A stretch of 35,989 nt of DNA. It comes from Candidatus Woesearchaeota archaeon (GTDB lineage: Archaea; Nanobdellota; Nanobdellia; Pacearchaeales; GW2011-AR1). The notes under the pieces were generated by a model, which was given only the letters and a program-made list of their open reading frames with translations, was not told the origin of the DNA and searched no databases. This document shows positions 8,475-31,336 of the stretch, piece by piece. The stretch covers positions 1-35,989 of the forward strand of contig CAYWFA010000001.1 of assembly GCA_964457815.1 (NCBI GenBank), written 5' to 3'. Position numbers and translations under genes: made by a program. The number at the start of each line of letters is the position of its first letter. Within the stretch, counting starts at the first letter, position 1.

Positions 8475-9218
8475 TTAATCCAACTCCACATACAAATAAT
8501 AAGCTGTTGCACCTGTGAAACCTTGAGAACCGTTTTCAGGAACCAACATTTGGAAATCGTAAGTTTGCCCATCATAACCTGCCAAATTGTCTTCTAAGAT
8601 TGTAGCATATATTATGCTAGTTCCATCATACAAAGCCATTTCTTCGAAATCATCATCTTGGGGATTATCATTTGTGTAAGTGTTTAAAGTTGGACATGCA
8701 TTTGCTCCAATGTTTGTGATTGCAACGGGAAAAGCATCGTGTGTACTAGGATAAGAGAAAGTTGCAGTTATATTGTCTGAAGTTCTATTATGAAACATTG
8801 CAGCATTTTCTGCCTCTAAATTAGTTGTTATATTTGCACATTCAATGGAAGACCATTCAATTGTATTGGAATCTCTTGTAGAATAAACTCTTCCTGTGGT
8901 TACACTTAAACTCCAATCATAAATTGTTGAACCTGCAGAATCATCCAAGGTAAATGCTCCATTTACCCATCCTACAAATGCTTTCCAATGAGTGTTTTGA
9001 ACGGAAGTGGTTAAATTTAAAGCAGCTATATATCCTCCTGAAATATTGAAGAATCCAGCAGAAGAGGTATTTTTAGTTTCATTCCAAACAGAATCCAAAT
9101 CATCTATTCCGCTCGGGTCTGCAGATAAAAAAACGTTTGAAAATAAAAAAACGGATAATAAAAATATCCCCGTTATCAAAATTCCAAATATAAGGTTATT
9201 TTTCTCATTTTTAAACAT
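8475..9218 (-). CDS. Secreted protein, divergent member (D) of the SW-G-YFG/YDFEMLV/FWVELE family
   Basis: 247 aa with a signal peptide. HWKAFVGWVNGAFTLDDSAGSTIYDWSL...GRVYST...EWSSIEC...FEEMALYDGTSIIYATILEDNLAGYDGQTYDFQMLVPENG...AYYLYVELD is collinear with paralogs A-C. Confidence 0.8.
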   Translation of the reverse strand: MFKNEKNNLIFGILITGIFLLSVFLFSNVFLSADPSGIDDLDSVWNETKNTSSAGFFNISGGYIAALNLTTSVQNTHWKAFVGWVNGAFTLDDSAGSTIYDWSLSVTTGRVYSTRDSNTIEWSSIECANITTNLEAENAAMFHNRTSDNITATFSYPSTHDAFPVAITNIGANACPTLNTYTNDNPQDDDFEEMALYDGTSIIYATILEDNLAGYDGQTYDFQMLVPENGSQGFTGATAYYLYVELD

Positions 9219-9300
9219 GTTTTTGTTTTTTTAATTTTCCTCCTTGTTCATTTTACTATTGGTTTTTCTTCTAAAAATTGTAAAAAATAAAAATAAAAAT

Positions 9301-10059
9301 TTATTCTAATTCTACCCAGAAGAAATAGGTAGTTGTAGCTGTATCTGTTAAGTGTCCGTTTTCCAATACAAGCATCTCGAAATCATGGGCTCTTCCATCA
9401 AATCCTAATGGACTTTCTTCATCTAAGATAGATGTGAAAATTACACTTGATGTTGAAGTTTCATACAATAAAACTTCTTGGAAGGTGCTGTCTGTAGCAT
9501 TTTGATTTGCTGCAAATATATGTGTACTTGCACAAGCTCCTGCTGCAAATTCTCTGTTGTTTGTATAAAACAAATCATGCACAAGACCAAAACCATTTTC
9601 ATGAGTTCCATCAGTTGAGAATGTTTCATTCACTCCATCAACATCATCATAAGCAATTCCAAACTCTGCTTCTAAGTCTTCGAAATAAGTTCCTTTTTCA
9701 TCTTCAAGGCATTTAACTGCACTCCAATTCAAGGAACCGTTTGTAGAAGCGTAAATTTCACCCTCTGGTGAAGCTAGAGACCAATTGTACATTACATTAT
9801 CTGCATTATCAGCCAACATAATTGTACCTGTAACATTACCAAAATAACCTTGCCAAGACTGAGTTATTGAATAACCAGAAATTGCAAGTTCAGTTACGTT
9901 TCCTGCAATAGCAGTGGTATTTCCTGCAGCACTAGCGTTCATCCTTGAACTTGTTAGATTAACTACATTTGCTCCGAAGGGTTCAACTGCTGAAACCAAT
10001 GCAAACAAAAAGATGCTTAAAACTATTGTTAATAGGAACAATCTATTTAATTTATTCAT
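9301..10059 (-). CDS. Secreted protein, paralog A of the SW-G-YFG/YDFEMLV/FWVELE family
   Basis: 252 aa. Sec signal ...FALVSA/VEPFG. Invariant core GYSITQSWQGYFGNVTGTIMLADNADNVMYNWSLASPEGEIYAS. C-terminus HDFEMLVLENGHLTDTATTTYFFWVELE. GGAGGG lies upstream of the ATG. Confidence 0.85.
   Translation of the reverse strand: MNKLNRLFLLTIVLSIFLFALVSAVEPFGANVVNLTSSRMNASAAGNTTAIAGNVTELAISGYSITQSWQGYFGNVTGTIMLADNADNVMYNWSLASPEGEIYASTNGSLNWSAVKCLEDEKGTYFEDLEAEFGIAYDDVDGVNETFSTDGTHENGFGLVHDLFYTNNREFAAGACASTHIFAANQNATDSTFQEVLLYETSTSSVIFTSILDEESPLGFDGRAHDFEMLVLENGHLTDTATTTYFFWVELE
9749..9914 (-). repeat. Conserved DNA segment R-A, shared with 20969-21134 and 22535-22663
   Basis: Hand alignment to 20969-21134 gives 155/166 identical bases, including most third-codon positions. 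Confidence 0.85.
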
Positions 10060-10227
10060 CTCTTTTATTTTACCCTCCTTTCAATTTTATAAAACTTTTT
10101 AAGTTTATAGTATAAAATGCAGTTATTAATTTATAAATCTTTCCAAATTAGTAACTATTATAAAATTTATATTAATTTAAATACAATTCAACAAAAATTA
10201 AATAATAAAATAAATATTTTATTGAAA

Positions 10228-13200
10228 TTAAAATATTTCTACGTAAAAAACTGCGCTTTTTGAATCTTGTGCATTATATTCTCTTAATCTTGCTGGAACC
10301 CTTAATTCATAATCATAAATTCCGTATGTTCCTTGTTCATGTTTGTTGATCGGAGAAACAAAAACTAAATCTTCTTTGTCTGCTAAATCGAATTCTCCCT
10401 CTGTTCCATTTGTATCGTCTGAAAAATCCCAAAGTATTCCTGTTACAAAATTGGAATTGTTTGTTGAATTAATTATCGGAACATTTTGTATTAAGCTTTT
10501 AAACGAATAAATATCTTGAGAATATTTTGGAACTCCAGAATTTGTATAAACGTTGTAAACAGAATCTTCAAAAGAACTGGTATTTAATGCTAAATCAATT
10601 TCTGAAAAATCTGAATTGCTGTTTGAATTAATTTTGTTTTTTCCTATAGCTTGTAAACTTGTCCAAGAAACATAAGAATCATAATCTGCAACGTAGATAT
10701 TTCCTTGATTGAAATTTTCTGTACTCCAGTTAATTAATTTGGTTGAATCATTGTTTGCTAGAACTAGATTACTTGAAGTTAAAACATCTCCATAAAAGAA
10801 ATGCCATGAACCCACATTAATCGTTTTTGAAGCCTTGTTGTTGGATTCATTTAATTCTATATAGCTTCCATTTGTTGTTAAAGGAGGATCAACTACAACA
10901 AAAACTTCTGAAGAACCTATTGAAGCAATTAATTCTTGAGAAACATTTCTCTCGCTGAATTTAGAAAGATTAATGAAAATGTCTTCTCCAATCTTTTCTC
11001 CTCCTGAATCTGGATCTCCTTTGTAAAAATTAACTGTAACATTTGAAATATCTGCTCCTGCAAGATTACGTATTGTTGCAGTTATTTCTATTAACTGATT
11101 TTCTTTAGGAGAACTTTCATTTAAAAATATTTCAGAAGAATTAACTGAAAAATCCGGATAAGTTAAATTAAATGTTCTTAACTCGCTTATGTTTGTATTT
11201 TTCATTTGATCCCAACAAGTTACATTCCACCAATGCTCTCCCTGTCCTAAAATAGAGGTAAGAACGTATTCTCTTTTTGATATATTGCTTGAAACCCAAA
11301 CGTTGGGTCTTCTAACTATTCCATCTACTGTTAAATTACATTGCAAAACTGTATCTAATGTATCTATTGCTGTCCAGTTGAAATAAACTCTGTCTTCGTT
11401 GAAATCAATTCCAGATTCATTTTCAGGAGAATTAAGAATTATTGAAGGAGGGGAAAAATCCATTGAAAAATATTTTGAGGTTGCATTTGCACTAGAAGGA
11501 ACAGGATTATTTGTATCATAACATTCAACTGTCCAATTATGTAACCCTTCTGGAATTCCTGAGATTGTGAAATTTGGATTTATTATTAATTCTGCAGAAG
11601 ATTTAGATTCATTCGAAACTTCATCTATATACAAGGTACAATTGTTTATTATCTGTGCATCTTCTGCAAGATAATGAAATGTTACTGCACTTCCAAAACC
11701 ATAAAAATCGTCATCTGGTGTGTAAAGAGTTATTTGTGGGGGGGCATATACTGTGAAATTTCTTGTTTCACTTGTATTGGAATTTTCGGCAGAGTCTGCA
11801 CATTCAATTGTCCAATTGTAATCTCCATCATCTAACAAATAAGGATATATTTCTGGAGTTGAATTCTCTGCAATAACTTGATCATAAAAAATATTATTGA
11901 TGAAAACATTACAAGAGATATTTTCATTTAAATTGTCTTCCACTGTGAAATTAAATAAAACTTCATTCCAATCTAATGTTTCGTTTGGTTCGGGTGAATT
12001 AAGGACAATTTTTGGAGCTTCTATGTCGATGTACAAGGTTCTATTTTCATCACTACCTATTACCCCTAAAGAATCCGCACAATAAACATTCCAAGTATGA
12101 TTTCCTTGAGAAAGAATTTCCGTGAAATAATTTGAATTATCATTAATTATTGGTGTTGAATTAACTTTTACAAATTCGTTGTCTATATACAAAGAACAAT
12201 TAACTATATCCTCTTCATATTTGTAAGCATAATATTCAAATTCAACTTCTGTGTAATTAAGCCAAGAATCTGGTTCCGGAGAAATCAAAATAACATCTGG
12301 GGGAGCAAAGGTAGTGAATTTTCTTGTTTCACTAATATTTAAATTTCCTGAATAGTCTGAACAAGAAACATTCCAATAATGCTCTCCAGAAATAAATGAT
12401 CTTGAAATCAAATTTGTAGAGCCATTCTCTGCAATTATAGAAGTAATATTTCCATCAACCGTGAAATTACAAGTTAAATTTTGTGCTAAGTTATCAGTTG
12501 CGGTGAAATTAAATGTTATCTGAGAAGAATAAATTATATCCTCGTCTCCAGGATAAAATAAGTTTACTTGGGGAGTAGAATTGTCTTTATAAAAAAACCT
12601 TGTTTCCGAATTATTTTCTAATCCATAGGTATCAAAACAATTGATTGTCCAATTGTAAAAACCATCGGATAAATCGTTTATAGAAAAGTTGGTTTGTTGG
12701 TTGTTTAAAGGAGAATAAGTTATATTTTCAAAGGAGCCATTTATATAAATTGAACAATTTGATAAATTGGTATTGTCTGAAGGGAGATATTCCAATAAGA
12801 CTTGGTCTTTAAACCAGTATACGTCTTCTGTAATCAAAGAAATTTCAGGAAGTTCTCTTATTGTTATTTCCCTGTTTTCACTTATGCCATAACGTCCTGC
12901 AGAATCAATACAACTTACATTCCAAACTTTTAAACCATCTGTTAAATCTGTAATTAATATGCTTGTATTTGCATTATTACTTGCAAGCAAATTATTTTCT
13001 GATTTTTCTCCGATACTTAAATTGCAATTTAATTCTGAATCAAGATTATCAGTTACATTGAAATAAAAATTCAAAGAAGAAAATTGAGAAGTTGTTGAAG
13101 TTTCTGGATGTAAAAGATAAACAACAGGATTTTGTGTATCTACATAGAAACGTCTTGTATTCGCAATAACGCTATATTCCCCTGTGTCGGTTATATTGAC

Positions 13201-16200
13201 TGTCCAATTATAAAATCCATCTGGGAGAGTGAGTGTAAAATTATTGTATGCTTTATTTATAATTTGAGATTGATTGGACTGGTTGTATGTACCATTTAAA
13301 TATAAGTCTGCAATTGTTAAGTTGTTGTTGTCTGAAGCGTTATAAATTAAACTTATTGTTGATTCATTGAACCACCAAAAATCTGGAGTTATCAAAAATA
13401 TTTCTGGAGGAACATCATTTATATTGAAATGAAAAGTTTCGCTTGTATATGATCTTAAAGAAGAATCAAAACAAGTTACGTTCCAATAATGAGTCCCAAC
13501 TGTTAAATATCCTGAATTACGACTTACATTTGTTGCGTTTTCAACAATAATTCCAGGATAAATAATTTCACCATCCAAAACAATATCACATGTAAGATTT
13601 AATGCCATATTGTCAGTTGCATTAAATTCTAAATCAAGATTGTTTACAAGATTGTTTGCTCCGTCTTCAGGATAAATGAGATTTACAAAAGGATTTTCTA
13701 AATCAACATAAAATATTCTTGTTTCATTTGAAGCGGCTTCTAAACTAGTTGTGTCTGTTACATTCACACTCCAATTATAAATTCCTTGCCCAAGAGAAAC
13801 TGTAAAATTGTTTATAACATTATTTATTATTGACGATTGATTTGTTTGATTTAAATTTCCATTCAATATCAGTGTTGAATTTGCAAGATTATCGTTTATA
13901 TCTGAAACATTATAATAAAGAATTACTTGAGAAGAATTAAACCAACTTAGATTTATTGGAGAAGTTAAATTTACGTTTGGAGGTGTTGCTCCTGCAGAAG
14001 TAACTGTTATAGGAGTTGTAGTTGTACCGTTATAACTGTCATATGTTCCTACAGCAATACATCTAATGTTGTTGTCTGAAGAAAAAGTGTTACCTTCTAT
14101 TGTAAATGTTGTGTTTTGAGAGATATTTGTTACATTTCCTAAATAATGGGGATTTGTTTCTCCCGAATCTAAAACAATATTGCCTGAAGAGCCAATATTT
14201 TGCCATCCAGAAGTGGAAGTATTTCTTTGAATATAAACATTAACATTTCTACATGTTCCAGAAGAGCAATTGACTTGACAAACTGCATCGAATGTATCTT
14301 CTTGAGCAACATAGGGGTCTGTTAAAGGAGAAACCAAATCAGCATGTAAAAATCCTTCAGTGGTTAAGTTAACAATAACATAAGAATTTGTTCCGGAATC
14401 CCAAGAATGGGTCAAAGTTTTTTGGCTGGTATGTGTGTTGTATGCGTTGACAACTAATTTCAATCTATCACTCGGTCCAAGATAAATATCTTGATTTATA
14501 CATGTTGAATTTGTACCTGATGCAGCATTTTCAAATATTCCGCTATTTGCATCATTCCCTAATTGACAAATTAAAGTGTCTCCACTTGAGCCAGAAACAT
14601 AAAGTTTCCAAGTTATTGCTATTTTCCCTGTAGGAGTTGAAGAAGAAAAGGTTCCTGAAAAACTAATGGGGCTTCCGGAAGGAATAACCGCTCCATTATA
14701 ACCCATATACTGGGAAGTCGCACTAACAACATTTACTAATTGTCCTGCGCCAATATCAAATACTACAGAGTTTGAGGTTGCATCTTGGCTGCTTTTCAGT
14801 TTTATTTCTGCTAAAGTGTTTCTTGAAGGATTAAAATTAGAACTTTCATATAATGTTCCTGTAAATAATTCTGGAGTTATTGAAACATTTATTGTTTTAT
14901 TCTCACTGAAACCCGTTCTTCCCCCTTCATCTGTACAAGAAACATACCAAGAATAAACTCCATTATCTAAAAATTCGTTGAATGTTAAATTTATATCTTT
15001 TGTTATAGATGTTTCTGTTTTTTTTAATTGATTATTGATATATAAAGAACAATTTTCAACTGAAGAAGCATCAGAAACATTATATATAAAATACAAGTTA
15101 CTATCATCTGTAATTGTTGAAGAATTTGAAGGATAAACAAGATTAACTGAGGGAGATTCCAAGTCAAAAGAAAAAGTATAATTTGAAGTTCCAAAGAAAC
15201 ACCCATTAGAATTGTCGCAACATTGCACATTCCAGATATAATTTCCGGAAGAAGTATAAGTTTTATTTATGAAATTAAAAGTATTGTTAACTATTGAAGA
15301 TTGATTTGTTGAATTCATATGCCATAACCCCGTAGAATTATCCCACAAACTACAATTCAAAAAAGTTGCAGAAGAAATAGGGGTAAAATTAAAAACAACA
15401 TCTTGGGAATAAAGTATATCTGTGTCTAAAGGAGATCTTAAAAGAACTTCAAATGCTCCTGCTTCATAAATGCTATAACTAATTCTTAAATAACCTGCAG
15501 CCCCTGGACCTCCATTTCTTGAACCTCCAGAAGAAGTTTTAATTGCCCCAGAACCTCCACCTCCATAATTATTACCAGAATTTCCTGCCCCTGTAGTTGT
15601 TCTTCCTGCTCCTCCATCTCCCCCTAATTCAGACGTTCCTGTTCCTGCAGTTCCTCCAGTTGCATTTCCTCCAATCCCTGTTGAACCTGCACCTCCACCA
15701 CCTGCACCGGAATAGCCTCCTGATTGGGTCCCCCCTTTTCCTCCCATATAAATTATGTCCCCTATAGAATTTGCAACACTTCCTCCTTCTCCTCCTGTTC
15801 CTGCACTTAAACCTCCACTTCCCCCTGCAGCATATAATTCGGAACCATCATCAAAATATGTAGGATTTCCTGTTGCCCCATTCCCTGTTCCACCTGCAAC
15901 TCCTGAAGCTACAGCAACTGTATAATTTTCATAGGGGCTAACTGAAAAAGTTTTTTTAACATAAGCTCCTCCTCCACCTCCTCCTGCTCTTCCACTGCCT
16001 CCTCCTGGACGTCCTCCACCAGCACCCCCTCCACCCCAGGCTTCAACAGTAATTTCATAAACTCCTGCTGGAACCATCCAAGTTGTGCTTGAAGAAAAAT
16101 TTACAAGATAATATGTATAAGGATCAACAATATAATCAAATTCAACACTTCCCCCTACAACTTTTAAATCAAAGGTATCCTGAGGGTTTTGTAAATTTGT

Positions 16201-17601
16201 TAAATATATTTTATTGTATTCATTAGAGGTTATAGAAGTAAATTCTGCTATTTTTTCAGTTCCATTCTTTTCATAAACTTCAATAGTTGGATTTCCTGAA
16301 ATTATTCTTGGGTAGAGGGTTATATCTCTTGTATTATCTAAAGGAACTTCAAATGTGACTCTTACATACTCTTGATTTGCAATGGTTTCGGACCAAACAT
16401 CATCTAAATCTTTAACTTCCGGGTAAATATCTGAAATAAGAGTTCTGTTTGAAGATAAATGATCTGCCTTTGTTATGAGAATTATTTCAAAAGTCTGATT
16501 GGATAAATGGGGAACAATCCACTCAACATAATCAAATAACCCATTACCATCTTTATCATATGCATTAAAATCAAGATATACTCCTTCTTCCTTCCAATAA
16601 ACTTGAATTAAATCTATGCTTGAAATCTCTCTTGGAAGACTTGTATAAGATAAAACCTCTTCATAGTGGAGATAGTCTGGAGAAGAAATAATAACTTCTT
16701 TTTTATTTGTTGAAATTAATTTTTCTTGAACTATTGGAGGAGAAGTAGAATATTCTAGGAGAATAATTTCTTGAACATCATCATTTATCAAAATATAATC
16801 TTTTTCTTGAATATTTACTTGAGTGTAATCATTGAAAATTTCTCCATTTTCTTTTTTTAAAACGAAATTTAAAAAATTTGAAACTTCTAAAAAATTGCCT
16901 TCTTCCAATAAACTTACTTTTTTAATCCAATTTACAGGTTTTCCTATTTCGGCATTTCCTTGAATTAATTTATTTTCAACATATCTAACTGCATAAAAAG
17001 TATATGACGTTTTTCCATTTCCCCTTATTAAATCAACAGAATATTCTCCTTCCTCTAAAATCTCAAATAAAAAGATATCGTTAGAACCTAGTCTAGAGAT
17101 TCTTTTACCGGATGGTGAAATTATTCTTAATTCGTAATTTCCTAATCCCTGAAGATTAAATTCCAATGAACTCTCTGAAAAATAAGTGTTGGAATTTTGA
17201 AAATTAAAAGAATAATAATCTGAGAATTTGTTTAAAGAAATATTCGTTGAATAACTTTCAGAATAAACTGATTCTTCTCCTCCAGAGATAAAGTTTTTTT
17301 CGTTCACTTGAAATTCCAGTCTTTCAAATGTTTCTAAAGATTCTATGTCAAAAATATAACTTCCAGATTCTTGAAATAAAAAAGAAAATTCATTTTCACA
17401 GTTGAACTGAAGTTCGTTTGAAGGGGTTTTAACTTTGATGAAACAAGATTCAGAATCTTGAAAATTTAAAAAAAGTTTATCTCCAACAAAATAAGAATTT
17501 TCTTCAGATGCGGAACTAAAAAATAAAGAAAACACCAAAATTAAAACAAGTAAAACAAATAAAATTCCTGCACTTAATCTAATTATCCCCCCTTTGTTCA
17601 T
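10228..17601 (-). CDS. Giant secreted surface/adhesin-like protein (about 2457 aa): N-terminal beta domains, glycine-rich domain, tandem Ig-like modules, CARDB-like domain, C-terminal SW-G-YFG/FYVEIF domain
   Basis: Uninterrupted ORF. The track start at 17622 is a TTG. The ATG at 17601 is preceded by AAGGGAGA and overlaps the upstream wHTH stop (ATGA). Signal/TM is IIRLSAGILFVLLVLILVFSLFFSSA. Domain evidence is given under the sub-features. Confidence 0.9.
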   Translation of the reverse strand: MNKGGIIRLSAGILFVLLVLILVFSLFFSSASEENSYFVGDKLFLNFQDSESCFIKVKTPSNELQFNCENEFSFLFQESGSYIFDIESLETFERLEFQVNEKNFISGGEESVYSESYSTNISLNKFSDYYSFNFQNSNTYFSESSLEFNLQGLGNYELRIISPSGKRISRLGSNDIFLFEILEEGEYSVDLIRGNGKTSYTFYAVRYVENKLIQGNAEIGKPVNWIKKVSLLEEGNFLEVSNFLNFVLKKENGEIFNDYTQVNIQEKDYILINDDVQEIILLEYSTSPPIVQEKLISTNKKEVIISSPDYLHYEEVLSYTSLPREISSIDLIQVYWKEEGVYLDFNAYDKDGNGLFDYVEWIVPHLSNQTFEIILITKADHLSSNRTLISDIYPEVKDLDDVWSETIANQEYVRVTFEVPLDNTRDITLYPRIISGNPTIEVYEKNGTEKIAEFTSITSNEYNKIYLTNLQNPQDTFDLKVVGGSVEFDYIVDPYTYYLVNFSSSTTWMVPAGVYEITVEAWGGGGAGGGRPGGGSGRAGGGGGGAYVKKTFSVSPYENYTVAVASGVAGGTGNGATGNPTYFDDGSELYAAGGSGGLSAGTGGEGGSVANSIGDIIYMGGKGGTQSGGYSGAGGGGAGSTGIGGNATGGTAGTGTSELGGDGGAGRTTTGAGNSGNNYGGGGSGAIKTSSGGSRNGGPGAAGYLRISYSIYEAGAFEVLLRSPLDTDILYSQDVVFNFTPISSATFLNCSLWDNSTGLWHMNSTNQSSIVNNTFNFINKTYTSSGNYIWNVQCCDNSNGCFFGTSNYTFSFDLESPSVNLVYPSNSSTITDDSNLYFIYNVSDASSVENCSLYINNQLKKTETSITKDINLTFNEFLDNGVYSWYVSCTDEGGRTGFSENKTINVSITPELFTGTLYESSNFNPSRNTLAEIKLKSSQDATSNSVVFDIGAGQLVNVVSATSQYMGYNGAVIPSGSPISFSGTFSSSTPTGKIAITWKLYVSGSSGDTLICQLGNDANSGIFENAASGTNSTCINQDIYLGPSDRLKLVVNAYNTHTSQKTLTHSWDSGTNSYVIVNLTTEGFLHADLVSPLTDPYVAQEDTFDAVCQVNCSSGTCRNVNVYIQRNTSTSGWQNIGSSGNIVLDSGETNPHYLGNVTNISQNTTFTIEGNTFSSDNNIRCIAVGTYDSYNGTTTTPITVTSAGATPPNVNLTSPINLSWFNSSQVILYYNVSDINDNLANSTLILNGNLNQTNQSSIINNVINNFTVSLGQGIYNWSVNVTDTTSLEAASNETRIFYVDLENPFVNLIYPEDGANNLVNNLDLEFNATDNMALNLTCDIVLDGEIIYPGIIVENATNVSRNSGYLTVGTHYWNVTCFDSSLRSYTSETFHFNINDVPPEIFLITPDFWWFNESTISLIYNASDNNNLTIADLYLNGTYNQSNQSQIINKAYNNFTLTLPDGFYNWTVNITDTGEYSVIANTRRFYVDTQNPVVYLLHPETSTTSQFSSLNFYFNVTDNLDSELNCNLSIGEKSENNLLASNNANTSILITDLTDGLKVWNVSCIDSAGRYGISENREITIRELPEISLITEDVYWFKDQVLLEYLPSDNTNLSNCSIYINGSFENITYSPLNNQQTNFSINDLSDGFYNWTINCFDTYGLENNSETRFFYKDNSTPQVNLFYPGDEDIIYSSQITFNFTATDNLAQNLTCNFTVDGNITSIIAENGSTNLISRSFISGEHYWNVSCSDYSGNLNISETRKFTTFAPPDVILISPEPDSWLNYTEVEFEYYAYKYEEDIVNCSLYIDNEFVKVNSTPIINDNSNYFTEILSQGNHTWNVYCADSLGVIGSDENRTLYIDIEAPKIVLNSPEPNETLDWNEVLFNFTVEDNLNENISCNVFINNIFYDQVIAENSTPEIYPYLLDDGDYNWTIECADSAENSNTSETRNFTVYAPPQITLYTPDDDFYGFGSAVTFHYLAEDAQIINNCTLYIDEVSNESKSSAELIINPNFTISGIPEGLHNWTVECYDTNNPVPSSANATSKYFSMDFSPPSIILNSPENESGIDFNEDRVYFNWTAIDTLDTVLQCNLTVDGIVRRPNVWVSSNISKREYVLTSILGQGEHWWNVTCWDQMKNTNISELRTFNLTYPDFSVNSSEIFLNESSPKENQLIEITATIRNLAGADISNVTVNFYKGDPDSGGEKIGEDIFINLSKFSERNVSQELIASIGSSEVFVVVDPPLTTNGSYIELNESNNKASKTINVGSWHFFYGDVLTSSNLVLANNDSTKLINWSTENFNQGNIYVADYDSYVSWTSLQAIGKNKINSNSNSDFSEIDLALNTSSFEDSVYNVYTNSGVPKYSQDIYSFKSLIQNVPIINSTNNSNFVTGILWDFSDDTNGTEGEFDLADKEDLVFVSPINKHEQGTYGIYDYELRVPARLREYNAQDSKSAVFYVEIF
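10231..10809 (-). other. C-terminal 193-aa domain of the giant protein, homologous to the small secreted paralogs
   Basis: SWHFFYGDVLTSSNLVLANNDSTKLINWSTENFNQGNIYVADYDSYVSWTSL ... EDLVFVSPINKHEQGTYGIYDYELRVPARL...KSAVFYVEIF is collinear with SWQGYFGNVTGTIMLADNADNVMYNWSLASPEGEIYASTNGSLNWSAV ... SSVIFTSILDEESPLGFDGRAHDFEMLVLENG...TTYFFWVELE. Confidence 0.65.
10810..11160 (-). other. CARDB-like domain within the giant protein
   Basis: IEITATIRNLAGADISNVTVNFYKGDP...EVFVVVDP...IELNESNNKASKTI. The E-x-NE-x-NN ending and overall pattern are typical of CARDB. Confidence 0.6.
11161..13990 (-). repeat. Ten consecutive ~94-aa (about 283-bp) Ig-like modules arranged as five alternating A-B pairs
   Basis: Each module starts with a P-x-[VI]-x-L-x-x-P-like boundary. 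Each contains ...[FY]-x-[FY]-x-x-x-D...C-x-[LI]...G-x-[YH]-x-W-x-V-x-C-x-D...SE-x-R-x-F. A-type modules (L-x-x-P..W[FL]N...LNG..NQSNQS.IIN..NNFT...G.YNW) alternate with B-type modules (...ATDN...L.C...). Confidence 0.8.
15475..16085 (-). other. Glycine-rich domain (locally GC-rich) within the giant protein
   Basis: TWMVPAGVYEITVEAWGGGGAGGGRPGGGSGRAGGGGGGAY...GGSGG...GGGGAGSTGIGGNATGG...GGPGAAGYLRISY. The W-x-VPAGV...WGGGG...start and the Y-x-R-I-x-Y end match the glycine-rich domain recalled from phage tail-fibre-like and bacterial surface proteins. Confidence 0.6.
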
Positions 17602-17837
17602 TTTTCTCCCTTTATTTGCCAAAGATTTATTCTTCCTACACGAAAGCCATTAATCCTGTTATTTATTTGAAGTCTTAGACAACGAGTTTGAATGGAATGC
17701 CAAGGTTTTTTAATTTCATCTGCAATTTCCTGGGTAGATTTTGGATTAACGGAGCTAGAAAGAGACTTGACTATTTCTAATTCTAACACATCCTCTTTTT
17801 TGCGATTAACCGTACGGTTAATCTTACTTTTAATCAT
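17598..17837 (-). CDS. Small winged-helix DNA-binding protein; its stop overlaps the ATG of the giant gene
   Basis: 79 aa. SVNPKSTQEIADEIKKPWHSIQTRCLRLQINNRINGFRVGRINLWQI fits helix-turn-helix plus wing. Its TGA stop overlaps the giant-gene ATG (ATGA, 17598-17601). Confidence 0.7.
   Translation of the reverse strand: MIKSKINRTVNRKKEDVLELEIVKSLSSSVNPKSTQEIADEIKKPWHSIQTRCLRLQINNRINGFRVGRINLWQIKGEK
17805..17822. promoter_or_regulatory. Perfect 18-bp palindrome attaaccgt|acggttaat, candidate operator
   Basis: Read directly from the sequence. It lies 15-32 nt downstream of the wHTH ATG (17837), inside codons 6-11. Confidence 0.35.
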
Positions 17838-17860
17838 ACTATATAACGCAAGAAGAATTG

Positions 17861-17869: not shown

Positions 17870-17937
17870 CCTTTTGTATATTATTTATATTTCAATTGAT
17901 TTATAAGCCTAGGAAATAGTTGAAAAAGTATCTTTTT

Positions 17938-19311
17938 TTAAAAGATTTTAACTGTGAAAGGGCCTTTTTCGTTAACATAAGCAAAGTAATAAAAATAATT
18001 CTCGTCCTGCTCATAAAATGTTAAAGGAATCTCTTTTTCTCCTGAAAATACGTTGATTGATTTTTTCTTTTCTACTTTAAAGACAAGGAAAATCTTATCT
18101 ATATCCCCGGGAGGCAAATTTGTTAATATTTTAAAGGAATTTTCCTCTTTTTTTGCAGATTTTTTTGTTTCAAATTCCAAATAGGAATAAGAATTGAAAA
18201 TTTGTTTTTTTGGAAATATTGCAACTGTTTTAAGATAATCTTCTGTTGAATGTAAAATTATTGGATGGTCTTGGGAGCCCATTTGAACCACCGGGAAATT
18301 AAAATAACCTTTTGCAAAATGATTTGTCTTGTGAAAAGGAATAAATTTGAACCTGAAAAGAAGAACTTTGTTAATTGATTCTTTGTTTTCAATCCTCTGA
18401 TAGAATGGGTATTCCTGTTTAATAAAAGTTTCTGGACTTTTTAATGTGTAATTTGCTGTGAACTCCATTCTATTTGTTATGTTTTCTGTTAAAATATTGT
18501 GTGTGGAACTGAAATCCTTTGTTATGAAATAATTAAAAAATTTCCAATCAGATGGAAAATAAAATAAAAATTCTCCTGAAATATTGTGTGAGGCGTTAAA
18601 TGAGGAGGAAAAAATAATATTTTCGTTGGAAGGAACATAAAAATAATTTGGTTTTATTTTACATTTCTTACAAAAAACTTCCAAGTTAAAATTAAGATAA
18701 TCTAAATTGTAAAAAATTATCTTCTCGGAAATCTCTCTTGGGCCGTAAGCCGTAAAAATTATTTCGTTTTTTCCTTTGTCAAGGCTCATAGGAAACTCAA
18801 CAGTTGTACAATTTGTGCAAATATTTCCTTCTGAAAATCCTTCAGAAGAGTTTAAAGAATATTTCAAATTATTGTAATGTTCAGCAAGTGCGATATTTAA
18901 AATAATTGAAGATTGATTGACAAATATTTTTTCAATTGGAGAATTAATTGTTATTGCCTTCTGCAAATTCATCTGGGGGAATAAATCATATCCTTCTCCG
19001 GTTAGATACAAATTAACGGGTCCCGCAACAAATCCTGCATCCTGATCAAAAACCTCGGCAAAAATTTTTTTTCCAACAGAATAATTGAATGCGGGAAGTT
19101 CCTCTGTATCACAACAAAACTTGTTTTCTGGATTAATTTCACACTGGATAATTTTGGAATGATTCTCATCTGGATAAATAATAACTTTGGACCAGGAAGA
19201 TGAAAAATTCTGAGAATCGTTTACAAAACCGCAAACAAAATTGGAACTAACATGAGACAAACTAAAAAGAATAATAAAAAATACCGCCAAAAAAAGATAT
19301 CCCCTAGTCAT
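17938..19311 (-). CDS. Secreted Cys- and Asn-rich hypothetical protein
   Basis: 457 aa, ATG start, signal peptide MTRGYLFLAVFFIILFSLSHVSS. No TM anchor and no recognised domain. Lies 34 nt downstream of the HExxH membrane-protein gene. Confidence 0.75.
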   Translation of the reverse strand: MTRGYLFLAVFFIILFSLSHVSSNFVCGFVNDSQNFSSSWSKVIIYPDENHSKIIQCEINPENKFCCDTEELPAFNYSVGKKIFAEVFDQDAGFVAGPVNLYLTGEGYDLFPQMNLQKAITINSPIEKIFVNQSSIILNIALAEHYNNLKYSLNSSEGFSEGNICTNCTTVEFPMSLDKGKNEIIFTAYGPREISEKIIFYNLDYLNFNLEVFCKKCKIKPNYFYVPSNENIIFSSSFNASHNISGEFLFYFPSDWKFFNYFITKDFSSTHNILTENITNRMEFTANYTLKSPETFIKQEYPFYQRIENKESINKVLLFRFKFIPFHKTNHFAKGYFNFPVVQMGSQDHPIILHSTEDYLKTVAIFPKKQIFNSYSYLEFETKKSAKKEENSFKILTNLPPGDIDKIFLVFKVEKKKSINVFSGEKEIPLTFYEQDENYFYYFAYVNEKGPFTVKIF

Positions 19312-19345
19312 AGAAAATGAAAATTAACTGAGTATAAAAGATTTT

Positions 19346-20446
19346 CTAAACTCCAGTTAAATGAATAAATTCTTCTTCTGTTGTCCTGGATTTTGCAAGG
19401 ATGAGTATGCCTAAAATAATTATTGCTCCTCCGAACATTGAAAAGAAAGAAGACAAAACATTTGAAAATCCCAAATCTATGAAATCTTTGTAGGATATAA
19501 CTATATTGAATCCCAATATCAACAAAGAAATTTCTTTCATGAAAGTACCTCCTCCAAAAAAGAACAAGAAAGCAACAAGAACGGGAACAAAAATCCCCCC
19601 CAAAATTATTATACCTAGAGAATCTGGAGAATTGCCACATAGTATTTCGGTGTGGGGGAGGCTCCCTTCGTAAACAATCCTTTCCAAATCACAATCTGTG
19701 AAAAGTTTGGAAACAAAAAAATGTCCCGATTCATGAATAGCAATGGTCCCTATAAAAACAAAATTAGTTAAGATAACTATAAAAATAAAATATCGAATAA
19801 AATCAAATAGATAGTATTTTTTTTTAAAACTATGTTTTTTTTCGCTGGAAGAAAAAGGAATCTTTTTTAAATCTATTACAAAAAATAAAATAAATACAAA
19901 GAAAAACAAATTAGAAATTAAACTCATCAAAATTGAAGATTGATTTTTAAAGATAAGAATAACCTCCAATAAAAGTGAAATGGAACAGTAAAAAATTGCA
20001 AACTTAGAAATTCTTGCAAATTGGGGGATTGAAATTAACAAGATAAATAATATCATTATAAGCATTAAAGAAGAAATTAAAAGGAAGTTTGGAAAATTCC
20101 ATCCCATTAAAATTGAGAATATGAAAATTAAATAAATAAAAAGAAGGTAGAATATTTTCTTATTTTTTCTTATATTGTAAATTAGTATAAGAAGGAAGAT
20201 AGATTCAACAGATATTAAAATTGAATGAATGAATAAAAAATCTGAAGGATTATACGTAGTTACATTAAATACCACTAAAGAAAAAACTAAAGAATAAATC
20301 AAAAAAATGAATCCCATTAAAAACAATAAAAGGAATGCATTCCCTAATTTAGGATATTTCTTGTTATTTATTATAAAATTGAAAATTAAAAAGATTGCAA
20401 TTGCTAATGAAATTAAAGCATTTAACAAAAATAAAAAATTTATCAT
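19346..20446 (-). CDS. Polytopic membrane protein with HExxH motif (putative intramembrane zinc metalloprotease)
   Basis: 366 aa and hydrophobic throughout, with about 8-9 predicted TM segments. IAIHESGHFFVSK (HESGH encoded at 19721-19735) lies at the edge of a TM segment, as in M50/S2P-like proteases. The second (NxxPxxxxDG) motif was not recognised. Confidence 0.7.
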   Translation of the reverse strand: MINFLFLLNALISLAIAIFLIFNFIINNKKYPKLGNAFLLLFLMGFIFLIYSLVFSLVVFNVTTYNPSDFLFIHSILISVESIFLLILIYNIRKNKKIFYLLFIYLIFIFSILMGWNFPNFLLISSLMLIMILFILLISIPQFARISKFAIFYCSISLLLEVILIFKNQSSILMSLISNLFFFVFILFFVIDLKKIPFSSSEKKHSFKKKYYLFDFIRYFIFIVILTNFVFIGTIAIHESGHFFVSKLFTDCDLERIVYEGSLPHTEILCGNSPDSLGIIILGGIFVPVLVAFLFFFGGGTFMKEISLLILGFNIVISYKDFIDLGFSNVLSSFFSMFGGAIIILGILILAKSRTTEEEFIHLTGV

Positions 20447-20571
20447 CTTCTTAATAAACAGTTCTTAACGATTAAAAATAACTGATGTTCCATACAAAAA
20501 AAGGTTTAAAAGTATATTTAAATGTTTTTTAAAAATGAATAATAAGGGCAAAAAATAAAAAAAATGCGCCC

Positions 20572-21273
20572 TTATTCAAGTTCTACCCAAAAGTAGTATG
20601 TTGTTGGATTTGTATCTATTCCATGGCCGTCTTCAAGAACCATCATTTCAAAGTCGTGAGGGTTGTTATCAAAACCATCTGCATCATTTAATAAAAGAGA
20701 TGCAAAGATTATATTTGGACCATCTGTAAGCAAAACTTCATCAAATGTTCCCGTTCCCACGCTGTTATACAATTTTGTGCTATTACATAAGCCTGTAGTA
20801 AATTGTTTGTTGTTTGTGAAAAACTCTGCGTGATTGTTTAAATTAAATGTTTCATTCAATCCATCTGCATCAGCAGTAGAAATTCCAAACATGTTTTCAA
20901 AAAAAGTCATATTTGTAGGCTCATCATAACATTGAATACCTTCCCAAGCTACAGAAGAGGAATTAGATGCGTAAATTTCACCCTCTGGTGAAGCCAGAGA
21001 CCAATTGTACATAACATTATCTGAATTATCTGCCAACATAATTGTACCTGTAACGTTACCGAAATAACCTTGCCAAGACTGGGTTATCGAATAACCAGAA
21101 ATTGCAAGTTCTGTTATATTTCCTGCAATAGCAGAATCATTTCCTGCAGAAGTAACGTTAGCCCGTGAGCTTGTCAAGTTGGTCACGACAGCTCCATTAG
21201 GTAATGCAGACACCAATGAAGACAATATCAAGATTGTACAAAAAACCAATACAAAATTAATTATTTTTCTCAT
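20572..21273 (-). CDS. Secreted protein, paralog B of the SW-G-YFG/YDFEMLV/FWVELE family
   Basis: 233 aa. Signal ...LSSLVSA/LPNG. Core GYSITQSWQGYFGNVTGTIMLADNSDNVMYNWSLASPEGEIYAS. C-terminus HDFEMMVLEDGHGIDTNPTTYYFWVELE. GGAGGT lies 7 nt upstream of the ATG. Confidence 0.85.
   Translation of the reverse strand: MRKIINFVLVFCTILILSSLVSALPNGAVVTNLTSSRANVTSAGNDSAIAGNITELAISGYSITQSWQGYFGNVTGTIMLADNSDNVMYNWSLASPEGEIYASNSSSVAWEGIQCYDEPTNMTFFENMFGISTADADGLNETFNLNNHAEFFTNNKQFTTGLCNSTKLYNSVGTGTFDEVLLTDGPNIIFASLLLNDADGFDNNPHDFEMMVLEDGHGIDTNPTTYYFWVELE
20969..21134 (-). repeat. Conserved DNA segment R-B
   Basis: 155/166 identical to 9749-9914. Positions 20975-21097 are 121/123 identical to 22541-22663. 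Confidence 0.85.
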
Positions 21274-21892
21274 TTTGTTTACCTCCTTTCATCTCTATAA
21301 TTTTTTTTAAAAAAACAGGATTTTGGTAAATTGGAAAAAGAGAAGAAAAAGAAATATTATTTATTTCATTTAAAGAATAAAATTCAAGCTTAACACTGTT
21401 CTCTTGCTTTTTAGAAATATTTTCTATTGTTTGTTGGATTTTTTTATCTTCCAAAAATATGATTAAAGAAGAATTTGATTTTTTTATATCCGCAAAAATT
21501 GCATATATGCTCTTAAAGTTGTCTTTAACCTTATAAATAAACTCCTCTAGAAAGAATTGTGAAGATTTATTCTCCAAGAGCCAAATTTTAAAGATTGATT
21601 TTTGATAATCTTCTAAATCTAGATTTTTTTTCTCTCCAAAACCATTGGTAAGTAAAATTGAATAACAAATATCTTTTGAAATTGAAAAGAGATTCCTTGG
21701 TTTTCCTTTTTCAAAAGCACCCGTCTTTTCCTTGGAAACAATTTGAGCTGCTTCAAGCAATTTTAACTGCTGACTGATAAATGAAACTGTTGTTTTTGTT
21801 TTTTCTGCAATCTCAATTGGGGAGGAAGGCTTCTCCGAGATAATTTTGAGAATTTCCCACCTCGGAGATGCCAGAAAAGAATCAAGTTCCAT
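21257..21892 (-). CDS. ArsR-like winged-helix transcriptional regulator with C-terminal extension
   Basis: 211 aa. SPRWEILKIISEKPSSPIEIAEKTKTTVSFISQQLKLLEAAQIVSKEKTG...PRNLFSI is a typical ArsR/SmtB-type HTH. Its 3' end overlaps the paralog B start by 17 nt. Confidence 0.75.
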   Translation of the reverse strand: MELDSFLASPRWEILKIISEKPSSPIEIAEKTKTTVSFISQQLKLLEAAQIVSKEKTGAFEKGKPRNLFSISKDICYSILLTNGFGEKKNLDLEDYQKSIFKIWLLENKSSQFFLEEFIYKVKDNFKSIYAIFADIKKSNSSLIIFLEDKKIQQTIENISKKQENSVKLEFYSLNEINNISFSSLFPIYQNPVFLKKIIEMKGGKQNEKNN

Positions 21893-22062
21893 TAGTTAAT
21901 AGATATCTCAAAAGCTATTTAAATGTTTTGTTTAATTAATTAACTTAATTTTTTTACTAATGAGGGTAAAAAATTATAAAGGCTTATTAACTAAATAAAG
22001 TAAATAGTTAAATAGTTTATAAAAAATAAAGGGAATTTTATTTAAAATCTAAAAAAAAGAAA

Positions 22063-22851
22063 TTATTCTAATTCAATCCAAAAGTAATAAGTTGTTGTTT
22101 CCGTATCTGTTAAATGCCCGTTTTCAAGAACAAGCATTTCAAAATCATGGGGATTGTTATCAAAACCAAAAACATTTTCATTTAACAAAGAGGTAAATAT
22201 GATACTACGTGTAGTTGGTTCATATAAAAGAACTTCTTCAAATTTATTGTCTTCGCCTTGTCCAGAATTGGTGAAAACTTGAGTGTTTCTACATTCTCCT
22301 TCTGAAAAATTAAGATTATTTGTATAAAATGTATTATGGCCTGAACCTAAAAGGGTGAAGGTTTCGTTTACTCCATCCACATCATCATCAGCAATTCCAA
22401 ACATTGCTTCCAAAATTGTTAAATTGGTTCCATGTTGATTTGTATCTCCGGGAGTTTCTGCTCCAATGTAAGTTCCATCTGCGTCAAAATTAAAACATTG
22501 AACATCTGCCCAAGAAATTGAGTCATTTGTAGAAGCATAGATTTCACCCTCTGGTGAAGCCAGAGACCAATTGTACATAACATTATCTGAATTATCTGCC
22601 AACATAATTGTACCTGTAACATTACCAAAATAACCTTGCCAAGACTGGGTTATCGAATAACCAAATATACTTAGCTCCGTAACATTTCCCGCCAAAGCTG
22701 GAATACCTGTTGCGTCATCTGAATCTGCCCTGCTAGAGGATAAATTAACAACATTTGCTCCAAAGGGTTCAATTGCTAAAACCAAGGAAATGTTCAATAA
22801 AAATATTAGCACAGCAACGAAAAGTATTACTTGTTTCATCCTCTTTACCAT
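22063..22851 (-). CDS. Secreted protein, paralog C of the SW-G-YFG/YDFEMLV/FWVELE family
   Basis: The track ORF starts at a TTG (22866). The first ATGs are at 22851 (MVKRMKQ...) and 22839. Signal ...ISLVLA/IEPFG. Core GYSITQSWQGYFGNVTGTIMLADNSDNVMYNWSLASPEGEIYAS. C-terminus HDFEMLVLENGHLTDTETTTYYFWIELE. Confidence 0.85.
   Translation of the reverse strand: MVKRMKQVILFVAVLIFLLNISLVLAIEPFGANVVNLSSSRADSDDATGIPALAGNVTELSIFGYSITQSWQGYFGNVTGTIMLADNSDNVMYNWSLASPEGEIYASTNDSISWADVQCFNFDADGTYIGAETPGDTNQHGTNLTILEAMFGIADDDVDGVNETFTLLGSGHNTFYTNNLNFSEGECRNTQVFTNSGQGEDNKFEEVLLYEPTTRSIIFTSLLNENVFGFDNNPHDFEMLVLENGHLTDTETTTYYFWIELE
22535..22663 (-). repeat. Conserved DNA segment R-C
   Basis: Positions 22541-22663 are 121/123 identical to 20975-21097. 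Similarity drops sharply outside this segment. Confidence 0.85.
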
Positions 22852-22895
22852 CGATAAAATAAACAAAAAGAGCTTTATAATTCTTTCTTTTTTAA

Positions 22896-31302: not shown

Positions 31303-31336
31303 ATTAATAACTTTAAATAATAATATTTAAAACTTT

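What the first reader, a model, noticed from the sequence alone, without database searches (positions are those of the whole stretch)
8475..22866. Four-member family of small secreted proteins with an invariant 44-aa core
The ORFs at 9301-10059 (A), 20572-21273 (B), 22063-22851 (C) and, more distantly, 8475-9218 (D) are 233-262 aa. Each has a Sec signal peptide and the same layout. The N-terminal half holds ...ELAISGYSITQSWQGYFGNVTGTIMLADN(S/A)DNVMYNWSLASPEGEIYAS, identical in B and C and one substitution away in A. A variable middle contains a conserved Cys pair. The conserved C-terminus reads HDFEM(L/M)VLE(N/D)GH...TTY(Y/F)FW(V/I)ELE. I do not recognise the family. A conserved terminal beta-strand-like motif plus several paralogs would fit filament subunits (for example donor-strand-type assembly) or a variable lectin family.
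Basis: partly seen in the sequence, partly recalled or inferred. Interest (0 to 1): 0.7.

Follow-up and report, generated by a model that had tools for sequence, protein, structure and literature searches.

The report
Uncharacterised surface-protein module of DPANN archaea
The four small secreted proteins are real and belong to a large, unannotated protein family of tiny symbiotic (DPANN) archaea whose domain also ends a giant adhesin and sits on the outside of a membrane ATPase in the same gene cluster, so it is probably a building or docking block of an undescribed cell-surface apparatus.

Summary
A (9301-10059), B (20572-21273), C (22063-22851) and D (8475-9218) are paralogs with Sec-type signal peptides. 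A, B and C share the 44-aa core; D is 27-31% identical.

The family has at least 1,000 homologs, all unannotated, and every named source is a Woesearchaeota, Pacearchaeota or Nanoarchaeota MAG. It has no Pfam, NCBIfam or PDB sequence match. A fairly confident AlphaFold model has no Foldseek match.

Three new findings:
- The domain also forms the C-terminal ~190 aa of the adjacent 2,464-aa giant surface protein (hhalign 96.8%). It also forms the first ectodomain of a two-TM HerA-type ATPase (98.8%).
- The paralogs hold fixed positions in two syntenic modules: giant→A→D→E and ATPase→…→C→HTH→B→M50-like protease. This argues against a copy-number-variable lectin family.
- The core evolves in concert among the A/B/C types within each genome.

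Residues shared by all three contexts are structural, not catalytic.

Best reading (about 0.45): a self-associating extracellular module that ties the adhesin, the small subunits and the ATPase into one surface apparatus. Donor-strand assembly is plausible, because the giant's copy lacks the N-terminal strands. It is untested, because no multimer prediction was possible.

The parts
9301..10059 (-). Paralog A (252 aa). A secreted single-domain family member and the first gene after the giant protein (module 1).
   Evidence: AlphaFold gives pLDDT 78 overall and >90 for residues 100-230.
8475..9218 (-). Paralog D (247 aa). A divergent, distinct orthogroup that always follows the A-type gene.
   Evidence: 27-31% identity to A/B/C. 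hhalign to the family profile gives E 9e-48. D-type orthologs are 45-84% identical and sit at the same position in about 35 loci.
22063..22851 (-). Paralog C (262 aa). It sits in module 2, after the ATPase and two coiled-coil genes.
20572..21273 (-). Paralog B (233 aa). It sits in module 2, and its start overlaps the end of the HTH gene.
10231..10812 (-). C-terminal ~190 aa of the giant surface protein. It is a divergent copy of the family domain that lacks the N-terminal strands (beta0 'GAxV..' and beta1 'AGNVTEL').
   Evidence: hhalign of the family profile against a 24-sequence giant C-terminus profile gives prob 96.8%, E 2.4e-10 over 173 columns, end to end. The reversed control gives 0.1%. 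Weak HMM hits recur at the same place in more than 20 giants.
10228..17622 (-). Giant surface protein (2,464 aa). It has an N-terminal signal/anchor, a Gly-rich domain, many Ig-like domains and a CARDB-like domain, followed by the family-like C-terminal domain.
   Evidence: Pfam finds Big_13, Gly_rich_2, Big_7 and Big_3_3. Orthologs carry Laminin_G_3, DUF2341 and CARDB.
26768..27337 (-). Family-like domain (residues ~59-248) in the ectodomain of the HerA-type ATPase, directly after TM1. It has beta1 but not beta0.
   Evidence: hhalign of the family profile against a 13-sequence ATPase N-terminus profile gives prob 98.8%, E 5.3e-17 over 172 columns. The reversed control gives 0.1%.
24149..27511 (-). 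1,120-aa membrane protein. Layout: cytoplasmic tail, TM1, large ectodomain (family-like domain plus CarboxypepD_reg repeats), TM2, cytoplasmic HerA/FtsK-type P-loop ATPase.
   Evidence: Pfam finds DUF87, HerA_C and CarboxypepD_reg. PDB sequence hits are HerA helicases.
7511..8473 (-). Protein E (320 aa, secreted). It always follows D, with start and stop abutting, and has two tandem Ig-like beta-sandwiches.
   Evidence: Synteny. There are 516 homologs, all hypothetical. AlphaFold pLDDT is 83. Foldseek hits are generic two-Ig proteins: MSCRAMM N2N3, RbmA and Fab, at E ~1e-5 and TM ~0.2. E is not homologous to the family.
19346..20446 (-). Polytopic membrane protein (366 aa) with an invariant HExGH. 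A likely M50-like intramembrane metalloprotease, and the conserved gene after B.
   Evidence: Invariant H238, E239, G241 and H242 in 12 orthologs. Weak Peptidase_M50 hits in 3 of 12.
17938..19311 (-). 457-aa secreted protein with no known family. A conserved member of module 2.
21257..21892 (-). ArsR-type winged-helix regulator (211 aa), conserved between the C-type and B-type genes.
   Evidence: Pfam HTH_5 at 2.6e-6. Synteny.
22896..24081 (-). Two cytoplasmic coiled-coil proteins (289 aa at 22896-23765 and 107 aa at 23758-24081), conserved between the ATPase and the C-type gene.

Best explanation
The four ORFs are N-glycosylated, Sec-secreted, single-domain members of a Woesearchaeota/Pacearchaeota-specific beta-rich extracellular domain family. 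I propose that this domain is a self-associating assembly or docking module.

The same module occurs in three places:
(i) as free small subunits (A, B, C, D);
(ii) at the extreme C-terminus of secreted multidomain surface proteins, including the adjacent giant adhesin;
(iii) next to the membrane in the ectodomain of a two-TM HerA-type ATPase.

Contacts between these modules would hold secreted adhesins on a cell that has no wall or outer membrane. They would build one surface apparatus, encoded by the co-directional cluster 27511->7511.

The most likely contact mechanism is beta-strand augmentation or donation by the conserved N-terminal segment of the small subunits. This segment comprises beta0 'EPFGAxV..' and beta1 'AGNVTELxIxGYS' and is disordered or low confidence in the monomer model. 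It would insert into module copies that lack those strands. That gives two chains that mirror gene order: giant <- A <- D, and ATPase <- C <- B.

Shown: the family, its distribution, the three contexts, the synteny, concerted evolution of the core, and the lack of catalytic conservation. Inferred: oligomerisation, strand donation, and the order of subunits.
For: - Homology of the domain in three contexts within one cluster: hhalign 96.8% (giant C-terminus) and 98.8% (ATPase ectodomain), with clean reversed and neighbour controls.
- In every larger homolog (443-1,635 aa) the domain is at the very C-terminus.
- The giant has a cleavable-looking signal (..FFSSA|SEEN) and no other anchor.
- Fixed positional orthogroups in two modules recur in dozens of MAGs, and the modules are adjacent on the same contig in at least 5 MAGs.
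- The giant's copy starts at 'SW..' and lacks beta0 and beta1. The ATPase copy has beta1 only. The small proteins have both.
- Residues 23-54 of A include the >90% conserved P27 yet are modelled as disordered. The most conserved segment (55-105) has pLDDT 54-78, against >90 for the rest.
- The core is homogenised among A/B/C-type paralogs within genomes. Nucleotide identity is 93-96% in the core against 64-70% gene-wide. Codon sharing is 0.79-0.88 in the core against 0.51-0.58 outside. Lineage-specific substitutions are shared. Paralogs are more alike than positional orthologs in 83% of 277 quartets for the core, against 56% elsewhere.
- Columns conserved across all contexts are aromatic, Gly or hydrophobic. 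The His residues of HDFEM..ENGH are absent from D, the giant and the ATPase.
- Sequons are conserved (N54 98%, N75 93%, N144 76%) and occur at 3.4 per 100 aa, against 1.4 in shuffled sequences.
Against: - No oligomer could be modelled, and no experimental data exist for any member.
- The monomer core is already predicted with pLDDT >90 without a donated strand, so an 'incomplete fold' is not demonstrated.
- In the model, beta1 pairs with the protein's own beta2.
- Foldseek found no similarity to any solved donor-strand filament.
- Core homogenisation could reflect gene conversion alone, or binding of a common lineage-specific ligand.
- The apparent absence of beta0 and beta1 from the giant rests on where a remote alignment begins.
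- Two acceptor-only ends do not explain how the two chains would join.
Confidence: 0.45

Rival explanations
1. Ligand- or carbohydrate-binding (lectin-like) module. The domain is the distal binding head of surface proteins. The free paralogs are soluble or loosely bound lectins that recognise host or self glycans.
For: - The domain is a beta-sandwich at the far end (C-terminus) of proteins that are N-terminally anchored or secreted.
- The middle region is variable and flanked by a conserved Cys pair.
- The weak top Foldseek rows are CBM51, SPRY and phage or adenovirus knob-type domains.
- Concerted core changes could track a lineage-specific ligand.
Against: - All Foldseek rows are non-significant (E>=0.09, prob<=0.2, TM<=0.2).
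- No Pfam lectin or CBM hit recurs in 116 members.
- The hyper-conserved part is the core, not a variable binding loop.
- Paralogs are fixed orthogroups in operon-like synteny rather than an expanding or variable family.
- The reading gives no reason for a copy beside the membrane on a HerA-type ATPase.
Confidence: 0.2
2. Two-dimensional surface-lattice (S-layer-like) protein. The small paralogs form the cell's protein coat, and larger proteins insert into that lattice through the same domain.
For: - The proteins are secreted, heavily sequon-decorated and universally present in these genomes, which have no recognised S-layer gene.
- Sharing a domain between the main coat protein and accessory surface proteins has precedent in bacteria (SLH and CWB2 domains; my own knowledge).
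- Makarova et al. 2019 (PMC6393860) list a DPANN-specific secreted family next to 'S-layer-like proteins'. I could not verify that it is this family.
Against: - 210-240 mature residues is small for an archaeal S-layer protein.
- Four non-redundant paralogs in two modules, plus an ATPase-linked copy, suggest a discrete machine rather than a coat.
- No lattice evidence is available.
Confidence: 0.15
3. Secreted metal-dependent enzyme, with the HDFEM(L/M)VLE(N/D)GH motif as the active site.
For: H161, H225, D226, E233 and H236 are conserved within the A/B/C-type sequences.
Against: - H225 and H236 are replaced in D (YDFQMLVPENGS), in the giant (YDYELRVPA) and in the ATPase (VNFQMLLP).
- No enzyme family was found in Pfam, NCBIfam or PDB.
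Confidence: 0.03

Closest known systems
Chaperone-usher pili (FimH/FimG/FimF/FimA logic)
   Same: The suggested logic is the same. A large adhesin's C-terminal module is of the subunit type but lacks the N-terminal donor segment. Several small non-redundant paralogous subunits with N-terminal extensions are encoded beside it. A two-Ig-domain protein (E) lies in the same operon.
   Different: - No sequence or fold similarity: FimA scores Foldseek E 3.7, prob 0.01.
- The organism is an archaeon without an outer membrane or usher.
- E does not match PapD specifically.
- An ATPase is present, whereas chaperone-usher assembly is ATP-independent.
- Strand donation is not demonstrated.
Archaeal and bacterial donor-strand filaments without chaperones (TasA, AbpA bundling pili, Sulfolobus threads, Pyrodictium cannulae)
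   Same: These are Sec-secreted, glycosylated, beta-rich subunits of ~200-250 aa with an N-terminal donor strand that is free in the monomer. Several are archaeal surface filaments (PMC9245690; bioRxiv 10.1101/2022.04.26.489512 and 10.1101/2024.12.30.630787, listed; the abstracts were seen there but the papers were not read).
   Different: There is no Pfam Peptidase_M73 hit, no PDB sequence hit and no Foldseek hit, although these structures are in the PDB. None of those systems shares its subunit domain with a giant adhesin or a membrane ATPase.
Shared anchoring domains of surface proteins (SLH, CWB2)
   Same: One terminal domain recurs on many otherwise unrelated secreted proteins of the same organism, as expected for a common attachment module.
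   Different: Those domains bind cell-wall polymers that these archaea lack. Here there are also free single-domain copies and a copy on a membrane ATPase. There is no sequence relation.
Membrane-anchored FtsK/HerA-superfamily translocases (FtsK/SpoIIIE, EssC, VirB4, archaeal CedB)
   Same: The neighbouring 1,120-aa protein combines TM segments with a cytoplasmic HerA-type P-loop ATPase.
   Different: I know of no described member with a ~620-residue ectodomain between two TMs, nor one whose ectodomain is homologous to co-encoded secreted subunits. This rests on my own knowledge; literature searches found none.

Membership tests
Any curated protein family (Pfam-A, NCBIfam) | Score above the family's curated threshold | tested here: not met
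   No hits for A-D at E<=1 in Pfam or E<=0.1 in NCBIfam. No recurrent hit among 116 diverse members.
Chaperone-usher / donor-strand pilins | Incomplete Ig-like pilin fold | tested here: not met
   Foldseek against PDB gives no hit with E<0.6. FimA scores E 3.7-4.9 at prob 0.01.
Chaperone-usher / donor-strand pilins | N-terminal extension that completes the neighbour's fold | not testable with these tools
   A conserved N-terminal segment is unstructured in the monomer model. The giant's copy lacks it. No multimer prediction was available.
Chaperone-usher / donor-strand pilins | Dedicated PapD-like chaperone and outer-membrane usher | tested here: not met
   No Pfam PapD or usher domains were found in the cluster ORFs scanned. 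E is a generic two-Ig protein.
TasA/camelysin - archaeal bundling pilin (AbpA) | Peptidase_M73/TasA jelly-roll fold | tested here: not met
   No Pfam hit, no PDB sequence hit with two profiles and no Foldseek hit.
Type IV pilins / archaellins | Class III signal peptide (cleaved before the hydrophobic helix) and a long N-terminal alpha-helix, with a PilB/PilC-type machinery | tested here: not met
   The signal has a Sec-type n-h-c layout with a small-x-small site after the hydrophobic stretch. The model has only a 20-residue N-terminal helix. The ATPases in the window are HerA-type, not PilB/FlaI.
Lectins / carbohydrate-binding modules | Recognisable CBM or ConA-like fold or family | tested here: not met
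   The best rows (CBM51, SPRY) score E>=1.3, prob<=0.02. No Pfam CBM or lectin hit recurs.
Lectins / carbohydrate-binding modules | Sugar binding | not testable with these tools
   This needs glycan arrays or a structure with ligand.
DPANN-specific cluster cls.004306 (NEQ255) of Makarova et al. 2019 | Sequence homology to NEQ255; secreted; encoded next to Ig-domain 'S-layer-like' proteins | not tested
Either the A/D family or protein E could correspond.

The most novel reading that the evidence does not exclude
The cluster encodes a previously unknown type of archaeal envelope machine. A hexameric HerA/FtsK-type membrane translocase has an extracellular ring made partly of this domain. That ring nucleates a stalk or conduit of the small paralogs, built by strand exchange and tipped by the giant adhesin. 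Woesearchaeota and Pacearchaeota episymbionts would use it to attach to hosts and possibly to move DNA or other macromolecules.
Probability: 0.1. Interest if true: 0.9.

Novelty: categorically new. Interest (0 to 1): 0.62.

Why it matters
Woesearchaeota and Pacearchaeota are abundant, uncultured, genome-reduced archaea presumed to live attached to hosts. How they attach, and what their surface is made of, is unknown.

This analysis turns four 'hypothetical proteins' into a defined, widespread domain family with no known relatives. The domain links a giant adhesin, a set of small secreted subunits and a membrane-spanning HerA-type ATPase within one conserved gene cluster.

That gives concrete, testable candidates for the host-attachment or envelope apparatus of these organisms. 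It also suggests a possible new way of anchoring secreted proteins on a wall-less cell. If the strand-exchange idea holds, it would be an independent origin of donor-strand-type assembly.

The classification 'categorically new' refers to the protein family and fold. The function remains inferred.

Tried and rejected
- Pfam and NCBIfam scans of A-D and 116 diverse members found nothing recurrent.
- PDB sequence searches with 4-sequence and 116-sequence profiles found nothing, apart from spurious fatty-acid synthase at E~2.
- Foldseek of the A model against PDB and BFVD found no hit at E<=0.001.
- I tested whether neighbours E (354-aa ORF, 320-aa protein) and the 457-aa protein are family members. 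They are not.
- I looked for family members on viral contigs and found none.
- The search with the giant's C-terminal domain returned mostly gene fragments and added little.
- Literature searches for this family, or for a HerA ATPase-adhesin cluster in DPANN, found no description. The only lead is NEQ255/cls.004306, which is unverified.
- The ~600-aa proteins that replace the ATPase position in some lineages are secreted proteins without a Walker A motif.
- The enzyme reading was rejected because the His residues are not conserved across contexts.
- The type IV pilin reading was rejected on signal-peptide type.
- Natural tandem fusions that might reveal subunit packing were sought. None of the top 150 has two full copies of the domain.
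Full report
**1. Observation**

The minus strand carries the four ORFs exactly as described. A is 9301-10059 (252 aa), B is 20572-21273 (233 aa), C is 22063-22851 (262 aa from the ATG; the ORF runs on to a TTG at 22866) and D is 8475-9218 (247 aa). Identity to A is 56% for B, 64% for C and 31% for D.

The 44-aa stretch GYSITQ...EIYAS is identical in B and C and one substitution away in A. The Cys pair and the C-terminal motif are present, and in D the motif is degenerate. All four begin with a basic n-region, a hydrophobic h-region and a small-x-small cleavage site. This is Sec type, not the class III pilin type. I read it from the sequence, with no SignalP run.

The window is ~30% G+C. It carries rpL18e/L13/S9 and a tRNA-Leu.

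**2. How big and how known is the family**

A has 1,009 database homologs at E<=1e-3. All are 'hypothetical', and every named source is Nanobdellota, Pacearchaeota or 'archaeon'. An exhaustive profile search finds 1,192 clusters at 50% identity.

A scan of one genome per species finds 185 relatives. All are in Woesearchaeota, Pacearchaeota or Nanoarchaeota MAGs, apart from one labelled Diapherotrites, and there are usually two or more loci per MAG. None lies on a viral contig.

Nothing known matches the family:
- Pfam or NCBIfam, for the four proteins or for 116 diverse members.
- PDB sequences, searched with two profiles.
- Foldseek against PDB or BFVD, using an AlphaFold model (mean pLDDT 78, >90 for residues 100-230, pTM 0.71). 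The best E-values are 0.64 and 0.09, with TM <=0.2.

By every test available here it is an undescribed family. Within Foldseek's reach, the fold is also undescribed.

**3. The domain is not confined to the four small proteins**

In the representative search, every longer homolog (443-1,635 aa) carries the domain at its extreme C-terminus. It sits behind a signal or anchor, Gly-rich linkers, Ig-like domains or a beta-helix.

An HMM scan of all ORFs in 83 related loci plus the window gave weak but recurrent hits at two fixed places. One is the last ~190 aa of the giant proteins that precede A-type genes. The other is residues ~60-250 of the ~1,120-1,275-aa HerA-type ATPases that lie upstream of C-type genes.

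Profile-profile comparison confirms both:
- Family against giant C-terminus: prob 96.8%, E 2.4e-10, 173 columns. It runs from 'SWQGYFGNV' to the terminal 'YVEL' in both.
- Family against ATPase N-terminal ectodomain: prob 98.8%, E 5.3e-17, 172 columns.

Reversed-sequence controls give 0.1%. Unrelated neighbours give 0.1-5.8%. Within the window only these six ORFs carry the domain.

The ATPase protein has this layout:
- a basic cytoplasmic tail;
- TM1 (~30-55);
- a ~620-residue ectodomain that starts with the family-like domain, followed by CarboxypepD_reg repeats;
- TM2 (~683-706);
- a cytoplasmic HerA-type P-loop ATPase (Walker A AGATGMGKS; its PDB sequence matches are HerA helicases).

**4. 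Genomic context**

Across dozens of MAGs the paralogs occupy fixed positions:
- Module 1: giant -> A-type -> D-type -> E. E is 320 aa, and its start abuts D's stop.
- Module 2: ATPase -> ~110-aa and ~285-aa coiled-coil proteins -> C-type -> ArsR-type HTH -> B-type -> ~365-aa membrane protein -> ~460-aa secreted protein.

The ~365-aa membrane protein has an invariant HExGH and weak M50 similarity. The two modules are adjacent on the same contig in the window and in at least five other MAGs. Everything from 27511 down to 7511 is co-directional.

D-type is a separate orthogroup. Copy number is roughly constant at about four, with occasional tandem duplicates. This argues against a rapidly expanding or variable lectin family. 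It argues for non-redundant parts of one system.

E is a pair of Ig-like beta-sandwiches (pLDDT 83). Its structural matches are generic: MSCRAMM N2N3, RbmA and Fab, at low TM.

**5. Anatomy and conservation**

In a 241-sequence alignment the best-conserved blocks are residues 51-105 and the C-terminal 25 residues. The middle (110-190) is variable and indel-rich.

Sequons are enriched, at 3.4 per 100 aa against 1.4 in shuffled sequences. They are positionally conserved: N54 in 98% of sequences, N75 in 93%, N144 in 76% and N92 in 62%. This fits an archaeal surface glycoprotein.

The residues shared by the small proteins, the giant and the ATPase are aromatic, Gly or hydrophobic. The two His residues of HDFEM..ENGH are lost in D, the giant and the ATPase. 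This argues against a conserved catalytic site.

The mature N-terminus ('EPFGAxV...', P27 >90% conserved) through residue 54 is modelled as disordered. The hyper-conserved 55-105 hairpins have lower confidence (54-78) than the rest.

The three contexts differ at exactly this end:
- Small proteins and mid-size fusions have beta0 (GAxV..) and beta1 (AGNVTEL..).
- The ATPase copy starts at beta1, right after TM1.
- The giant's copy starts at 'SW..', immediately after its CARDB domain, and so lacks both strands.

**6. Concerted evolution of the core (new)**

Between A, B and C the 132-nt core is 93-96% identical, against 64-70% gene-wide. At identical amino acids the same codon is used in 79-88% of core positions, against 51-58% elsewhere.

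In many MAGs the A/B/C-type paralogs share lineage-specific core substitutions. Examples are TGTIMLADN in the window's clade, IQLTDANDNVFYNWS in RFLO, and AGNVTYLE..SPSGE in CAZQGH.

In 277 two-genome quartets, within-genome paralogs are more alike than positional orthologs in the core in 83% of cases. The figure for the rest of the protein is 56%.

So the core is homogenised, probably by gene conversion, or it co-evolves among paralogs. D is excluded. This is what one expects if the cores of different paralogs must stay compatible with each other or with a common partner.

**7. Interpretation**

The best-supported reading is an extracellular, self-associating assembly or docking module. It joins small subunits, secreted multidomain adhesins and a membrane ATPase into one surface apparatus.

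The proposed contact mechanism is donation or augmentation by the N-terminal strands. This gives giant<-A<-D and ATPase<-C<-B, mirroring gene order. It is an inference from which strands are present or absent, from the disorder of that segment in the monomer model, and from analogy with FimH and the Fim subunits.

Rivals are a lectin-like binding head, an S-layer-like lattice and an enzyme. The last is the least likely.

**8. Comparison with what is known**

In logic the system resembles chaperone-usher pili and the chaperone-free donor-strand filaments: TasA, AbpA, archaeal threads and cannulae. It fails every sequence and fold membership test for them. It is not a type IV pilin.

[quoted passage not shown] S-layer-like proteins' (cls.004306/NEQ255; PMC6393860). 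I could not check whether it is this family. No paper describing this family or this ATPase-adhesin cluster was found.

**9. Verdict**

The feature is real, widespread and uncharacterised. The structural-subunit idea is plausible and now better motivated, but it is unproven. The lectin alternative is weakened.

- Interest: 0.62.
- Novelty: a protein family and fold with no detectable known relative, embedded in a conserved cluster of a kind not described.
- Confidence in the general 'assembly module' reading: ~0.45.
- Confidence in strand donation specifically: ~0.15-0.2.

Noticed in passing
window 24149-27511 (-): A 1,120-aa protein with an unusual layout: TM1, a ~620-aa ectodomain (family-like domain plus CarboxypepD_reg repeats), TM2, then a cytoplasmic HerA/FtsK-type ATPase with a C-terminal coiled coil. 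It is conserved (1,118-1,275 aa) upstream of C-type genes in at least 12 MAGs.
   Followed up: partly
window 9877-9746 (A), 21096-20965 (B), 22662-22531 (C); minus strand: The 132-nt core is 93-96% identical between paralogs, although the genes are only 64-70% identical overall. Codon sharing is in excess. This points to gene conversion or concerted evolution, and the same pattern appears in other MAGs as shared lineage-specific substitutions.
   Followed up: yes
window 19346-20446 (-): A polytopic membrane protein with an invariant HExGH plus conserved Cys, Pro and Asp residues. It shows weak Peptidase_M50 similarity in 3 of 12 orthologs and always follows the B-type gene. It may be a processing protease of the system.
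   Followed up: partly
homologs P0175, P0165, P0151, P0132 (not in the window): Mid-size fusion proteins that carry the family domain also have a region with sub-threshold similarity to the Nup98 S59 autopeptidase. That region contains an 'HF(S/T)xY(S/T)' motif like the Nup98 HFS cleavage site, ~140-190 residues upstream of the family domain. They may be self-cleaving surface proteins.
   Followed up: partly
window 7511-8473 (-): Protein E is annotated in public data as 320 aa (P0269, 100% identical). The longer 354-aa ORF that overlaps D is probably not used. E is a conserved two-Ig-domain secreted protein with 516 homologs and no annotation.
   Followed up: yes
window 1658-4132 (-): A second, soluble HerA/DUF87-type ATPase (671 aa, no TM segment) is preceded by a 152-aa coiled-coil protein. 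The same pair lies near the rpS9/L13/L18e genes in L003, so it is conserved context and not obviously part of the surface cluster.
   Followed up: no
window 6016-7265 (-): A Xer-type tyrosine recombinase (277 aa) and a small recombinase-like Zn-ribbon protein sit directly downstream of E. The same arrangement occurs in L001 and L003, so it is conserved synteny rather than a sign of a recently inserted mobile element.
   Followed up: partly
window 29629-35857 (-): Two further surface proteins. One is 1,506 aa with Big_13/Big_1 Ig-like domains and no evident signal peptide at the called start, so it may be truncated. The other is 557 aa with a signal peptide and a C-terminal TM anchor. Neither carries the family domain.
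   Followed up: no
L022 7518-8255; L014 8340-9122; L051 5911-8383: Module composition varies. A D-type gene occupies the B position in one MAG. Another MAG has an extra D-type after B. One MAG has a tandem duplicate of the A-like gene.
   Followed up: no
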